From the sequence record MW883060: a stretch of 39,713 bases of DNA. One strand, 5' to 3'. The translations under genes were made by a program, and so were the position numbers. The notes below the pieces were generated by a model. The model searched no databases and was not told the origin of the DNA. It saw only the letters and a list, made by a program, of their open reading frames with translations. Within the stretch, counting starts at the first letter, position 1, and each line of letters begins with the position of its first letter. Below are positions 34,018-38,762 of this stretch, one piece after another. Source of the DNA: Escherichia phage vB_EcoP_SYGE1.

Positions 34018-36669
34018 TTAAGCGAATGCGAAGTCAGATTTCAGAATGTCTTGCAGGTTCAGATTACCCTTCTTAGGCAGAGCTGGCATCTTGTCGAGCT
34101 GGGATTCGTGCAACTGGTCTGCGAACTGCTCATAGAAGTCGGCCAGTACATCACAAGACTCATAGGTGTCCACCATAGTTTCGCGAACAGCTTTGAACAG
34201 GTTAGCAGCGTCAGCCGGAATGGTCCCGAAGGAGTCGTGAATCAACGCAAATGATTCGATTCCGTACTTCTCATGCGCCCACACTACAGTCTTACGCAGG
34301 TGGCTACCGTCTTGGCTGTGTACAAAGTTAGGAGCAATACCGGACTCCTGTTTGTGTGCATCAATCTCGCTATCCTTGTTAGTGTTAATGGTTGGCTGCA
34401 AGCGGAACTGACCGAGGAAAATCAGGTTCAAGCGAGTCTGAATTGGCTTCTTGTATTCCTGCCACACAGGGAACCCATCAGGAGTTACCCAATGTACAGC
34501 GCAACGCTTGCGAAGAATCTCTCCAGTCTTCTTATCTTTGACCTCAGCAGCCAGCAGCTTAGCGGCAGACTTGAGCCAGTTCATAGCCTCTACAGCAGCT
34601 ACTACAGTCACACTCACAGCCTCCCAAATCAGTTTCGCCATGTATCCAGCAGCCTGATTCGGTTGAGTGAACATCAGACCTTTACCGGAATCAATAGCTG
34701 GCTGAATGGTATCTTCCAGCACTTGTTGGCGGAAGCCGAACTCTTTGGACCCGTAAGCCAGAGTCATTACTGAACGTTTAGTCACGCTGCGTGTTACACC
34801 GTAAGCCAGCCATTGACCAGCCAGCGCCTTAGTGCCCAGCTTGACTTTCTCAGAGATTTCACCAGTGTTCTCATCGGTCACGGTAACTACTTCGTTGTCG
34901 GTTCCATTGATTGCGTCTTCTTGCAGAATCAAATTGACTTTCTTAGCGACAATCCCGTAGATGTCCTGAACGGTTTCGCTAGGCAGAAGGTTAACAGCAC
35001 GACCACCAACCTCATCTCGGAGCATCGCGGAGAAGTGCTGAATGCCAGAGCAAGACCCATCGAACGCCAGCGGAAGAGAGCAGTTGTAGCTTAAGCCGTG
35101 GTGCTGTACCCCAGCGTACTCAAAGCAGAACGCGAGGAAGCAGAACGGAGAATCTTGCTCAGCCCACCAAGTGTTCTCCAGCGGAGACTTAGCGCAAGCC
35201 ATGATGTTCTCATGGTTGTCCTCAATGAACTTGATGCGCTCAGGGAACGGAACCTTATCGACACCAGCACAGTTTGCACCGTGGATTTTCAGCCAGTAAT
35301 AACCTTCCTTGCCGATTGGTTTCCCTTTAGCCAGCGTCAGCAGACCCTTGGTCATATCGTTACCTTGCGGGTTGAACATTGACACAGCGTAAACACGACC
35401 GCGCCAGTCCATGTTGTAAGGGAACCAGATGGCCTTATGGTTAGCGAACTTATTGGCTTGCTCAAGCATGAACTCTAAGCTGATACGGCGAGACTTGCGA
35501 GCCTTGTCCTTGCGGTACACAGCAGCAGCAGCACGTTTCCATGCGGCGAGAGCCTCAGGATTCGTGTCGATGTCTTCCGGTTTCATCGGAAGTTCTTCGC
35601 GCTCAATCGCTGGGATGTCCTCTACAGGACAATGCTTCCACTTGGTGATTACGTTAGCAACCGCTAGGACTTTCTTGTTGATTTTCCAAGCGGTGTTTTG
35701 CGCAATGTTAATCGCTTTGTACACCTCAGGCATGTAAACGTCTTCGTAGCGCATCAGTGCTTTCTTGCTATGAGTACGTACCAGTGCCAGAGGACGGCGA
35801 CCGTTAGCCCAATATCCACCACCAGTAATACCAGTCCACGGTTTAGGAGGAACTACGCAAGGTTGGAACATCGGAGAGATACCAGCAAGCGCACCTGCAC
35901 GGGTTGCGATAGCCTCAGCGTATTCCGGTGCAAGTTCGATAGTCTCAGAGTCTTGCCCTACTACGCCAGCATTTTGACGATGTAAGCTAACCATTCCGGT
36001 GGACTCAATGAGCATCTCAATGCAGCGCACACCAACGTGAATGGAGTCTTCCTTATGCCACGAAGACCACGCCTCGCCACCCAGTAGACCCTTAGAGAGC
36101 ATGTCCGCTTCGACAACCTGCATGAATGCTTTCTTGTAGACGTGCCCTACGCGCTTGTTGAGTTGTTCCTCAACGTTTTTCTTAAAGTGCTTAGCTTCAA
36201 GGTCACGGATTCGACCAAAGCGCGCCTCGTCCTCAATAGCTCGACCGATTGCACTTGCTACAGCCTGAACGGTTGTATTGTCTACGCTCGTTAGGCAAGC
36301 CAGAGTTGTCTTAATGGTGATGTACGCTATCGCTTCCGGCTTGATTTCTTGCAGGAACTGGAAGGCTGTCGGGCGCTTACCGCGCTTAGCTTTCACTTCC
36401 TCAAACCAATCGTTGATGCGTGCAATCATCTTGGGGAGCAGAGTAGTAATGAGAGGCTTAGCGGCAGCGTTATCCGCAACCTCACCCGCTTTAAGTTGAC
36501 GCTCAAACATCTTGCGGAAGCGTGCTTCACCCATTTCGTAAGACTCATGCTCAAGGGCCAACTGTTCGCGAGCTAAACGCTCACCGTAATGGTCAGCCAG
36601 AGTGTTGAACGGGATAGCAGCCAGTTCGATGTCAGAGAAGTCGTTCTTAGCGATGTTAATCGTGTTCAT
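34018..36669 (-). CDS. Single-subunit DNA-dependent RNA polymerase gp1
   Basis: 883 aa, MNTINIAKNDFSDIELAAIPFNTLADHYGERLAREQLALEHESYEMGEARF..., near identical to recalled T7 RNAP. Confidence 0.98.
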   Translation of the reverse strand: MNTINIAKNDFSDIELAAIPFNTLADHYGERLAREQLALEHESYEMGEARFRKMFERQLKAGEVADNAAAKPLITTLLPKMIARINDWFEEVKAKRGKRPTAFQFLQEIKPEAIAYITIKTTLACLTSVDNTTVQAVASAIGRAIEDEARFGRIRDLEAKHFKKNVEEQLNKRVGHVYKKAFMQVVEADMLSKGLLGGEAWSSWHKEDSIHVGVRCIEMLIESTGMVSLHRQNAGVVGQDSETIELAPEYAEAIATRAGALAGISPMFQPCVVPPKPWTGITGGGYWANGRRPLALVRTHSKKALMRYEDVYMPEVYKAINIAQNTAWKINKKVLAVANVITKWKHCPVEDIPAIEREELPMKPEDIDTNPEALAAWKRAAAAVYRKDKARKSRRISLEFMLEQANKFANHKAIWFPYNMDWRGRVYAVSMFNPQGNDMTKGLLTLAKGKPIGKEGYYWLKIHGANCAGVDKVPFPERIKFIEDNHENIMACAKSPLENTWWAEQDSPFCFLAFCFEYAGVQHHGLSYNCSLPLAFDGSCSGIQHFSAMLRDEVGGRAVNLLPSETVQDIYGIVAKKVNLILQEDAINGTDNEVVTVTDENTGEISEKVKLGTKALAGQWLAYGVTRSVTKRSVMTLAYGSKEFGFRQQVLEDTIQPAIDSGKGLMFTQPNQAAGYMAKLIWEAVSVTVVAAVEAMNWLKSAAKLLAAEVKDKKTGEILRKRCAVHWVTPDGFPVWQEYKKPIQTRLNLIFLGQFRLQPTINTNKDSEIDAHKQESGIAPNFVHSQDGSHLRKTVVWAHEKYGIESFALIHDSFGTIPADAANLFKAVRETMVDTYESCDVLADFYEQFADQLHESQLDKMPALPKKGNLNLQDILKSDFAFA

Positions 36670-36739: not shown

Positions 36740-37825
36740 TCAGCCCATTAGCATTGCGTCAAGTTTCTTGTCGATGTTAAGCGGAAGACCGTTAGCGATA
36801 GCCATCCGGTCAGCTTTACACCAGTGTGCTGCGATTCGTTCCTCAAGCGCCTTAAAGTCCCCAGCGAACATGTTGACCCAGAGCATAGCGTTATCGGTTC
36901 TTCCCAGTACATCTACAGCTCTCTCATGGTTACGTCGTTCTTGACGTTCAGCCATTCGCCACGCAGCGACCATTCGCTTGTGCTTCGCTTGGTGTACTTT
37001 ACGTGCCTTGCGGTTGTGACGTTTGAATCTGCGTGCATCTAATCGACCCACATGCCGTGCTTTACGTTCCCTAGCGCGTTCAATTTCCTTCTGACGTGCG
37101 ACCTCCTCGATTTCCTTGATGAGTTCCTCAGGGTCAATACTGAATGAGCCACCGCCTTTCTTCTGTGAGAGCGATACAGGGTCGGTAATGTATGGTACAT
37201 CATTATCATCAAACATGATGTTCCCACTGTGCATGTCGAACGAAGCGATGCCCTCAAAGAACTTGCGGATTAGCTTACAAGTCTCGACGAACTCGCCATC
37301 CCACCCAGTCAGCACATCGTGCATATCTGATTTGTAGTCAATGATGTCGCTTGCAATCTCAGCGTATTTATAGTGTTCATCGTTATCGTAACACTCGCAA
37401 TCATTCAGTGCATCGAGTACAACCGTATAGCATCCAGCGTGACGCTGTACATCGTAGACGTTAGGTATACCTGCACGGCCCTGATACATGCGGCAGAATG
37501 CGGTATACGCAGCGCCTGAGTCCTCTTTCTTAAAGCCCACCTTAATCACTCTATTGGGCAGCAGCGGGTGACTATAAGCAGCCGAGAAGTGACCATTACC
37601 GAGCATCTTGAACCCTGCGTCAGCCGTGAGACACTTCAAGGTAGTCCACCAGTCTTGCGACTCAAGACACCGATTCAGTTCGGTAATTTCCCCATCGCAT
37701 GTCTCGCTATTGACCATCTCTACCAGTAAGTCGATAAGCATCCCTTGACGTTTGTCAAGTTCACAGATTGGCAGTGCTTTGATTGCGTCGATAGCGTTCA
37801 TGATGTCGGTAATGTTCACTTGCAT
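36740..37825 (-). CDS. Ser/Thr protein kinase and host shutoff protein gp0.7
   Basis: Near identical to recalled T7 gp0.7 ([25 protein letters not shown]...). The start is ambiguous: ATG at 37823..37825 (MQVNITD) or GTG at 37817..37819 (MNITD, better-spaced GGAGA). The track ORF begins at TTG. Confidence 0.85.
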
Positions 37826-37840
37826 ATTCTCCAAATGTGA

Positions 37841-38038
37841 TTAATGGGTTGCTACGTAAAAGATGCCTACTTTGTTCGCCTTAAAGCGCCCGTTGTGTTC
37901 ACGTACCGTAAACCGTGGTAGGAATCCGTATTTAAAGTAACTTAGCGTTGCTTTGTGGACCTTTATACCCTTGCGGAAGTCTCTAAGGAACACGTATAGG
38001 ATTAGAGCGTAACCAGTGATGATAATTAGCGATAGCAC
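37841..38038 (-). CDS. gp0.6-like small hydrophobic protein
   Basis: 65-aa ORF with apparent GTG start overlapping the end of 0.5; assignment by position only. Confidence 0.35.
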   Translation of the reverse strand: MLSLIIITGYALILYVFLRDFRKGIKVHKATLSYFKYGFLPRFTVREHNGRFKANKVGIFYVATH

Positions 38039-38196
38039 TTTATTGCCTCCAGAGCTTCCTTACCGCGCCCCTCAGCGTCCAACTTAGCGAGTAGTGCATC
38101 ACGTTGCTTAAGGAACTTTGAGCGCTCCAACGCGGTGCTACGCCATCCCATCGCTACGAATACTGCAACGGTTGCCATAAAGATTCCAGTCGTCAT
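38026..38196 (-). CDS. gp0.5-like small membrane protein
   Basis: 56 aa from ATG at 38194..38196 preceded by GAGGATTAAACAC; MTTGIFMATVAVFVAMGW... has a hydrophobic N-terminus. Confidence 0.5.
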   Translation of the reverse strand: MTTGIFMATVAVFVAMGWRSTALERSKFLKQRDALLAKLDAEGRGKEALEAIKCYR

Positions 38197-38218
38197 GTGT
38201 TTAATCCTCATAGAATGA

Positions 38219-38262
38219 TAATCATGAAAGGCCACTCGCTTTGAGCGACCTTGAGTCTATCA
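38219..38262 (-). promoter_or_regulatory. Putative RNase III site R0.5
   Basis: tgaaaggccactcgctttgagcgaccttgagtc lies between 0.4 and 0.5. Confidence 0.45.
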
Positions 38263-38415
38263 CTCAGCAGATTCCAAAGCTATTGCCTTGTTGTTTTCGT
38301 ACAGTTCCTTAAGGTGTGCCATTGCGAGCGACCAATTAAACCCGCAGCGCACCATGTCACTATAGAACAGTACAGTTTGAGCGGTCAGACCGTATTGCGT
38401 GGTGCTGTTAGCCAT
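38260..38415 (-). CDS. gp0.4 (FtsZ inhibitor in T7), 51 aa
   Basis: ATG overlapping the ocr stop (TAATG); [51 protein letters not shown]. Confidence 0.7.
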   Translation of the reverse strand: MANSTTQYGLTAQTVLFYSDMVRCGFNWSLAMAHLKELYENNKAIALESAE

Positions 38416-38762
38416 TACTCTTCTTCCTCGTCTTCTACTTCCGCAAGATACTCGTTCAGTAAGTCCTCAGCGTCTGCCCAAAGGTCGCTAGTGAGTTGCT
38501 CATAGATGCGAGCCTGTAGAATGCGGGTTACGTCCTTGGTGTTCGGAATAAGACCAGAGTCCTCAAATTCAAAACCAATGCCATCGCTTGCCATTACACT
38601 AAAGATGTCATTATAGTAGTGAGGGACCGCATCATCGGCAGCCATATGAATAGCATCGTGCAGGTCGTCAATTCTACGGATGTCATCATAACGGATGTTT
38701 TCTTTCAGCATTTCGTAAGCGTGGTCGAAAACGTTGTTGTAAGTCATGTTAGACATAGCCAT
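38415..38762 (-). CDS. ocr: Ocr, DNA-mimic anti-restriction protein gp0.3
   Basis: 115 aa, highly acidic, [29 protein letters not shown]..., near identical to recalled T7 Ocr. Confidence 0.95.

What the first reader, a model, noticed from the sequence alone, without database searches (positions are those of the whole stretch)
36740..37825. gp0.7 kinase appears to use a non-ATG or shifted start
Where T7 gp0.7 begins MNITD, this sequence has GTG AAC ATT ACC GAC with GGAGA 9 nt upstream, and an ATG two codons further upstream (MQVNITD) only 3 nt from the SD. Either a GTG start or a 2-residue N-terminal extension is implied.
Basis: seen in the sequence. Interest (0 to 1): 0.2.

Follow-up and report, generated by a model that had tools for sequence, protein, structure and literature searches.

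The report
Ordinary GTG start of T7-like kinase
The phage protein-kinase gene here most likely starts at a GTG codon, as already annotated in many related T7-like phages, and the nearby upstream ATG is probably an unused triplet sitting too close to the ribosome-binding site, so the finding is real but ordinary.

Summary
The window is the reverse complement of a T7-like (Teseptimavirus) genome. The described sequence is there on the minus strand: TAA-TCACAT-TTG GAG AAT ATG(37825) CAA GTG(37819) AAC ATT ACC GAC.

From the GTG the protein is 359 aa, 88% identical to T7 gp0.7 with no gaps, and starts at the same residue.

Comparison with 25 related loci shows three start-region alleles:
- T7-type ATG.
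- A common GTG type (TGGAGAATACAYAAA-GTG) with no in-frame upstream ATG. All 12 annotated records checked start at the GTG.
- The window's type (TGGAGAATATGCAA-GTG), found in five independent sequences, all keeping the GTG.

The conserved GGAG places the GTG at an aligned spacing used by other genes (DtoStart 16; the T7 start is at 15). It places the ATG at DtoStart 10. Published E. coli reporter and toeprint data show an AUG is not used at DtoStart 10-11 when a GUG lies 2 nt downstream. No clear SD-led start in T7 (57 genes) or this genome (45 genes) sits that close.

T7 carries the same ATGCAA in its spacer out of frame, so there it cannot be the kinase start.

Verdict: GTG start (about 0.8). 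The 2-residue extension is a minor possibility. Start-codon ATG/GTG switches are routine in this phage group. Low interest; already known.

The parts
36740..37819 (-). gene 0.7 protein kinase CDS read from the GTG (359 aa plus stop, 1080 nt, the same length as T7 gene 0.7)
   Evidence: BLASTP against T7 gp0.7: 317/359 identical, 0 gaps, residue 1 aligned to residue 1. PHROG 2828 serine-threonine kinase, E 5.5e-168, protein 1-359 on profile 1-366. tblastn maps T7 residue 1 to window 37819.
37817..37819 (-). GTG, the most likely initiation codon (read as fMet, giving MNITD...)
   Evidence: Equivalent to the T7 ATG. It is the annotated start in 12 allele-B phage records. GGAG aligned spacing s=7, DtoStart 16. 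The following base is A (GTG-A).
37828..37832 (-). Shine-Dalgarno GGAGA, inside a TGGAGAAT block conserved across different upstream contexts
   Evidence: TGGAGAAT is invariant in all 15 allele-B and 5 allele-W sequences despite at least three unrelated upstream contexts. GGAG is annotated as the RBS in phage Pila. Hybridisation energy to the anti-SD is -6.4 kcal/mol.
37823..37825 (-). In-frame ATG two codons upstream (would give MQVNITD...), probably an unused triplet in the SD-start spacer
   Evidence: It lies 3 nt after GGAG: aligned spacing s=1, DtoStart 10. It is absent in allele B and out of frame in T7. AUG at DtoStart 10-11 was not used in E. coli assays (PMC9841429).
37832..37834 (-). 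TTG that opens the mechanical ORF (MENMQV...); not a plausible start
   Evidence: It overlaps the SD itself. No anti-SD pairing is found upstream of it. It is out of frame in allele B relatives.
37841..38038 (-). Upstream 65-aa ORF (phrog_2385) whose TAA stop lies 15 nt before the ATG and 21 nt before the GTG
   Evidence: ORF list. PHROG 2385, E 3e-28. Annotated as a hypothetical protein in Bas104, Bas103 and Bas64.

Best explanation
Gene 0.7 (the T7-type serine/threonine kinase) of this T7-like phage initiates at GTG 37819-37817. The 30S subunit pairs with the conserved GGAG(A) at 37832-37828, which places the GTG near the P site. The product is fMet-Asn-Ile-Thr-Asp..., 359 aa, colinear with T7 gp0.7.

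The in-frame ATG two codons upstream is a triplet within the 9-nt SD-to-start spacer. It sits too close to the SD to reach the P site while the SD helix is formed, so it contributes little or nothing.

Shown: sequence, homology, conservation, spacing geometry, annotation in relatives. Inferred: actual codon usage by the ribosome. No N-terminal data exist for this phage.
For: 1. Homology. From the GTG the protein aligns residue 1 to residue 1 with T7 gp0.7 (88% identity, no gaps, both 359 aa) and with position 1 of PHROG 2828.

2. Relatives. The closest relatives of this region (Bas104, Bas103, JeanTinguely/Bas64, JB01; about 95% identical) read TTGGAGAATACATAAA-GTG. Their upstream frame is shifted by 1 nt and has no in-frame ATG/GTG/TTG near the SD, so the GTG is the only available start. 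The same holds for 11 more phages. All 12 annotated allele-B records checked start at that GTG. Pila also annotates GGAG as the RBS.

3. Geometry. Aligned spacing is s=7 / DtoStart 16 for the GTG and s=1 / DtoStart 10 for the ATG. T7's own accepted ATG is at DtoStart 15 and allele B's GTG at 17.

4. Spacing in other genes. Among 57 annotated T7 starts and 45 T7-equivalent starts in this genome, aligned spacing is 3-11. None is below 3, apart from one ambiguous T7 case that I take, from its sequence, to be gene 0.5, which also has a GAGG register at s=4.

5. Experiment in E. coli (PMC9841429). With AUGUG start sites at DtoStart 10/12 and 11/13, activity came only from the downstream GUG and not from the AUG. 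GUG at DtoStart 14 or more gave activity similar to AUG. [quoted passage not shown]

6. Model. A simplified Salis-type score (hybridisation + spacing penalty + start-codon term) gives -5.8 kcal/mol for the GTG. For the ATG it gives +4.4 with the GGAG register, or -2.7 with a weak 2-bp register.

7. ATGCAA in T7. T7 has the same ATGCAA in its spacer but out of frame (ATG CAA TGA). Other T7-type alleles lack it, so this ATG is not a conserved start signal.

8. GTG retention. All five allele-W sequences, in two different upstream gene contexts, retain the GTG.

9. Precedent. GTG starts are normal here: 6 of 57 in T7 and 4 of 45 in the window, with ATG/GTG switches at genes 4.3, 17.5 and 19.

10. 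Accessibility. The region is unstructured (z = +2.1 against shuffles), so neither codon is masked.
Against: - There is no direct measurement for this phage.
- ATG is intrinsically a better initiator than GTG, and the SD is only a 4-5 nt GGAG(A). SD-independent or loosely positioned initiation at the ATG cannot be excluded.
- The upstream ORF stops 15 nt before the ATG, so a terminating ribosome could reinitiate at the first start codon it meets.
- Annotators of phage 64795_ec1, which has the same allele, chose the ATG in both the GenBank and RefSeq records.
- GTG retention in five closely related allele copies is weak evidence, because GTG would also be kept as a Val codon over short evolutionary times.
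- The experiments cited used overlapping AUGUG sites with a strong SD, not an ATG 6 nt upstream of a GTG with a moderate SD.
Confidence: 0.8

Rival explanations
1. The ATG at 37825 is the main, or a substantial co-used, initiation codon. It would give a kinase with a 2-residue N-terminal extension (MQVNITD..., 361 aa). Initiation would be either SD-independent or by reinitiation of ribosomes terminating at the upstream ORF's TAA 15 nt away.
For: ATG is in frame with no intervening stop. ATG is a stronger initiator than GTG. The identical allele in phage 64795_ec1 is annotated from the ATG (1086-nt CDS). The allele recurs in five sequences and two upstream contexts, so it is at least tolerated. 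The upstream ORF's stop is close. The region is unstructured.
Against: The ATG is only 3 nt from GGAG (DtoStart 10), a position from which AUG was not used in E. coli reporter and toeprint assays. No clear SD-led start in T7 or this genome has such a spacing. The ATG is absent from the closest relatives and from 15 allele-B phages, and is out of frame in T7. The model score favours the GTG by 3-10 kcal/mol. The base after the ATG is C, whereas the GTG is followed by A, the base reported to consolidate start codons.
Confidence: 0.17
2. Translation starts at the TTG at 37834 that opens the mechanical ORF, giving [10 protein letters not shown]... (364 aa).
For: It is the first start-type codon after the in-frame stop, which is why the ORF list begins there.
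Against: The TTG overlaps the SD itself (TTGGAG). No anti-SD complementarity lies upstream of it. TTG is a weak initiator. In allele-B relatives the same TTG is out of frame. It is only 6 nt after the stop of the upstream ORF.
Confidence: 0.01
3. Translation starts at the downstream in-frame ATG at 37801 (codon 7, MNAIDAIK...), and the first six codons are leader.
For: An in-frame ATG exists at codon 7 and is conserved.
Against: No SD precedes it. The six preceding codons (NITDI or NAIDI) are conserved as coding sequence across alleles. All annotations and the PHROG profile include them.
Confidence: 0.02

Closest known systems
Bacteriophage T7 gene 0.7 (protein kinase / host transcription shut-off; T7K), V01146 2021-3100
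   Same: Same gene in the same genomic position, between the 0.3-0.6 region and gene 1 RNA polymerase. 359 aa, 88% identical, no gaps. The SD-to-start geometry is the same (DtoStart 15 against 16). Even the ATGCAA spacer string is shared.
   Different: T7 starts with ATG and the window with GTG. T7's upstream ATG is out of frame (ATG CAA TGA), while the window's is in frame because of one extra base. The SD is AAGGA in T7 and GGAGA here.
Gene 0.7 of Escherichia phages AnnaIndermaur_Bas104, EmilieLinder_Bas103, JeanTinguely (Bas64) and JB01, and about 11 other Teseptimaviruses with an annotated GTG start
   Same: Same TGGAGAAT Shine-Dalgarno block and GTG AAC AT(T/C) ACC GAC start. About 95% nucleotide identity over the region, including the same upstream small ORFs in the first four.
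   Different: Their spacer is ATACAYAAA (9 nt after GGAGA), with no in-frame ATG. The window has ATATGCAA (8 nt), which contains an in-frame ATG.
Escherichia phage 64795_ec1 ORF3 (NC_031114 1532-2617), plus IMG/VR UViG_3300045988_000100 and metagenome contigs ERZ1023972.892 and ERZ1036438.5212
   Same: Identical TGGAGAATATGCAAGTGAAC start allele.
   Different: Three of the four have a different upstream gene (a 0.6-like ORF ending ...NKI*). 64795_ec1 is annotated from the ATG, an annotation inconsistency within the group.
E. coli genes with competing closely spaced start codons resolved by SD aligned spacing (hdhA, secF, nagZ; PMC9841429)
   Same: An upstream start-type codon lies too close to the SD and is excluded, and a downstream GUG is the functional start.
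   Different: Those cases are overlapping AUGUG/GUGUG sites in different frames. Here the two codons are 6 nt apart and in the same frame, so a mistake would only add two residues.

Membership tests
T7-type gp0.7 serine/threonine protein kinase (PHROG 2828) | Full-length sequence similarity to T7 gp0.7 / family profile | tested here: met
   88% identity over 359/359 aa, no gaps. PHROG 2828 E 5.5e-168, covering profile 1-366. No Pfam-A family matched and no PDB chain matched by sequence.
T7-type gp0.7 serine/threonine protein kinase (PHROG 2828) | Early-region position, upstream of the gene 1 RNA polymerase and downstream of ocr (0.3) | tested here: met
   RNA polymerase ORF at 34018..36669 and ocr-like ORF at 38415..38762, on the same strand. 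The same order is seen in Bas104 and T7.
T7-type gp0.7 serine/threonine protein kinase (PHROG 2828) | Kinase activity / host shut-off function | not testable with these tools
   Inferred from homology only. The function of T7K is described in PMC13645617.
SD-led GUG-initiated bacterial/phage gene | Start-type codon at the position homologous to the established start of orthologues | tested here: met
   GTG aligns with the T7 ATG and with the annotated GTG of 12 relatives.
SD-led GUG-initiated bacterial/phage gene | Anti-SD complementarity at a functional aligned spacing (DtoStart about 12-17) | tested here: met
   GGAG, -6.4 kcal/mol, s=7 / DtoStart 16. This is within the 3-11 range of s seen for the other genes of T7 and of this genome.
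SD-led GUG-initiated bacterial/phage gene | Experimentally determined N-terminus or initiation site | not testable with these tools
   No proteomic or ribosome-profiling data for this phage or for allele-W phages were found.

The most novel reading that the evidence does not exclude
The in-frame ATG allele (TGGAGAATATGCAA-GTG), which recurs in five sequences and two upstream gene contexts, is maintained because it yields dual initiation. It would then give two kinase isoforms, MNITD... and MQVNITD..., or tune kinase dosage through competition between an ATG crowded against the SD and a well-placed GTG.
Probability: 0.08. Interest if true: 0.2.

Novelty: already known. Interest (0 to 1): 0.07.

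Why it matters
It matters mainly for annotation. The kinase of this phage should be annotated from the GTG (window 37819, minus strand), not from the ORF-opening TTG and probably not from the ATG.

Public records disagree on this allele: 64795_ec1 is annotated from the ATG, while relatives are annotated from the GTG.

T7K has recently gained importance as a hyperpromiscuous anti-defence kinase (PMC13645617). A two-residue difference at the N-terminus is not expected to change its biology, and ATG/GTG start switches are routine among T7-like phages.

Tried and rejected
- Pfam-A scan of the kinase and the upstream ORF: no family.
- PDB sequence search: no solved relative, so no structural check of the N-terminus.
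- Rfam over the whole window: nothing at gathering threshold, so no known leader RNA or riboswitch at the start.
- IMG/VR scan for GGAGAATATGCAANNNAAC, meant to find allele-W copies in which the GTG had changed: 39 loci, but 37 were unrelated chance matches. The two real ones (L006, L034) keep the GTG.
- Genome-contig scan: no hit.
- Metagenome scan: 5 loci, one of them (L067) a chance match.
- RNA folding of the start region, looking for a structure that might mask one codon: none. The region folds less well than shuffles.
- Literature search for a determined gp0.7 N-terminus or a discussion of its start codon: nothing specific found.
- My extrapolated 'non-start codon' at the T7-equivalent gene 4A position was an artefact of extending a tblastn alignment. 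The window's 4A has a normal SD-ATG a few codons downstream.
- A simple recombination origin for allele W (allele-B SD joined to the T7 spacer) was considered. It does not give the observed sequence without an extra 1-nt change, so it is left as speculation.

Full report
**What is there**

The window is the reverse complement of a complete T7-like genome. The 883-aa RNA polymerase ORF lies at 34018..36669 on the minus strand. Immediately upstream on the same strand is a 364-aa mechanical ORF at 36740..37834.

Read on the minus strand, the start region is TAA(37843-37841) TCACAT TTG(37834) GAG AAT ATG(37825) CAA GTG(37819) AAC ATT ACC GAC ATC ATG AAC. GGAGA is at 37832-37828.

The quoted distances hold when measured from the GGAG core (3 nt to the ATG, 9 nt to the GTG). 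From the full GGAGA they are 2 and 8 nt.

**Identity of the gene**

From the GTG the product is 359 aa. It aligns with T7 gp0.7 residue 1 to residue 1, 317/359 identical, with no gaps. It covers PHROG 2828 'serine-threonine kinase' from profile position 1 (E 5.5e-168).

Pfam-A and the PDB hold no sequence relative. The CDS from the GTG is 1080 nt, exactly the length of T7 gene 0.7.

**Comparative evidence**

I anchored 25 related loci (GenBank phages, IMG/VR and metagenome contigs) on the conserved codons 2-8. The initiation region comes in three alleles.

- **Allele A** (T7, N30, C5, Yanou, ESh3 and three environmental contigs): AAGGACA-N-ATG.
- **Allele B** (Bas104, Bas103, JeanTinguely/Bas64, JB01, JacobBurckhardt/Bas65, vB_Yep_15, KKE5P, 3A_8767, AV103, Pila, ESh2, CICC 80001, WW2, LNA7, PVN09): TGGAGAAT(A/G)CAYAAA-GTG. 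The frame upstream of the GTG is shifted by one base relative to the window and contains no ATG/GTG/TTG near the SD, so the GTG is the only possible start. All 12 annotated records of this allele that I checked begin the CDS at that GTG. Pila also annotates GGAG as the ribosome-binding site.
- **Allele W**, the window's type: TGGAGAATATGCAA-GTG. It occurs in the window, in metagenome contig ERZ1036438.5212 (same upstream context), and in 64795_ec1, UViG_3300045988_000100 and ERZ1023972.892 (a different upstream gene). All five keep the GTG.

The closest relatives of the window over this region, at about 95% identity, carry allele B.

T7 itself has the same ATGCAA string in its spacer. There it is out of frame (ATG CAA TGA, overlapping the real ATG). 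Other allele-A phages lack it. The ATG triplet is therefore not a conserved initiation signal. It is a variable spacer sequence that happens to be in frame in allele W.

By contrast, the TGGAGAAT block is invariant in alleles B and W despite at least three unrelated upstream contexts. That is what is expected of the functional ribosome-binding site.

**Geometry**

I aligned the last 9 nt of 16S rRNA to the leader.

| Codon | Salis aligned spacing (s) | DtoStart |
|---|---|---|
| Window GTG 37819 | 7 | 16 |
| Window ATG 37825 | 1 | 10 |
| T7 accepted ATG | 6 | 15 |
| Allele-B GTG | not computed | 17 |

Across the 57 annotated T7 starts, the strongest anti-SD register lies at s = 3-11. The single exception is at s = 0; from its sequence I take it to be gene 0.5, which also has a GAGG register at s = 4. 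Across 45 T7-equivalent starts in this genome the range is 3-11, with none below 3.

A simplified Salis-type score (hybridisation + spacing penalty + start-codon term) gives -5.8 kcal/mol for the GTG. For the ATG it gives +4.4 using the GGAG register, or -2.7 using a feeble 2-bp register. This is my own reduced implementation, not the full RBS Calculator, so it is only indicative.

The region is less structured than shuffled controls (z = +2.1). Structure does not discriminate between the codons.

**Experimental precedent**

In E. coli, reporters and toeprints with AUGUG sites at DtoStart 10/12 and 11/13 gave initiation only at the downstream GUG, not at the AUG. Native hdhA and secF behave the same way. 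GUG at DtoStart 14 or more was about as active as AUG. The authors conclude that short aligned spacing physically prevents the 5' codon from reaching the P site (PMC9841429). [quoted passage not shown] Here the GTG is followed by A and the ATG by C.

These experiments are analogous, not identical, to the present case. They used overlapping codons and a stronger SD.

**Context: how unusual is a GTG start here?**

It is not unusual. T7 has 6 GTG starts among its 57 annotated starts. The window has 4 among 45 mapped starts. Between T7 and the window the start codon switches at gene 4.3 (ATG to GTG), gene 17.5 and gene 19 (GTG to ATG), and gene 0.7 (ATG to GTG).

**Conclusion**

The most likely mechanism is ordinary SD-directed initiation at GTG 37819, giving a protein colinear with T7 gp0.7 (confidence about 0.8).

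The ATG could contribute a minor MQV- isoform, perhaps through reinitiation after the upstream ORF's stop 15 nt away, or could even dominate (about 0.17). One public record of the same allele (64795_ec1) is annotated that way.

The TTG that opens the mechanical ORF overlaps the SD and has no SD of its own, so it is not credible. The same goes for the SD-less ATG at codon 7.

Nothing here is new biology. GTG starts for this gene are already annotated in many GenBank records. The practical outcome is an annotation recommendation, plus a note that databases are inconsistent for allele W. T7K's recently described role as a hyperpromiscuous anti-defence kinase (PMC13645617) makes the gene interesting, but not its start codon.

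Noticed in passing
window 26747 (gene 4.3), 3601 (gene 17.5), 2577 (gene 19), minus strand: Start codons switch between T7 and this genome at three other genes: 4.3 is ATG in T7 and GTG here, while 17.5 and 19 are GTG in T7 and ATG here. ATG/GTG interchange is therefore routine in this phage group.
   Followed up: partly
L014 / NC_031114.1 1532-2617 (phage 64795_ec1): This phage has the same start allele as the window, but both its GenBank and RefSeq records annotate the kinase from the upstream ATG (1086 nt). All allele-B relatives checked are annotated from the GTG (1080 nt). This is an annotation inconsistency.
   Followed up: yes
L003 (T7 V01146) around 2012-2023: T7 carries a two-codon out-of-frame mini-ORF, ATG CAA TGA, whose stop overlaps the gene 0.7 ATG. 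Its ATG sits at the same crowded spacing (DtoStart 10) as the window's in-frame ATG. It is not conserved in N30, C5, Yanou, ESh3 or SKED01000561.
   Followed up: partly
window 37841..38235, minus strand: In place of T7 genes 0.5/0.6 the window has two small overlapping ORFs: 38026..38235 (69 aa) and 37841..38038 (65 aa, phrog_2385, unknown function). Among GenBank phages this arrangement is shared only with Bas104, Bas103, Bas64 and JB01, plus one metagenome contig.
   Followed up: partly
whole window: T7 proteins 0.5, 0.6A, 1.4, 1.8, 3.8, 4.1 and 5.3 found no tblastn match at 1e-5. Genes 1.2 (40% identity), 5.5 (44%) and the tail fibre gene 17 (56%) are strongly diverged from T7. The first 25 kb is at most about 94% identical to any phage record, so this may be a distinct Teseptimavirus species.
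   Followed up: no
window 37770-37880, minus strand: The RNA around the 0.7 start folds less stably than dinucleotide shuffles (MFE -10.9 against a mean of -17.0 kcal/mol, z = +2.1). This is consistent with an open translation-initiation region.
   Followed up: no
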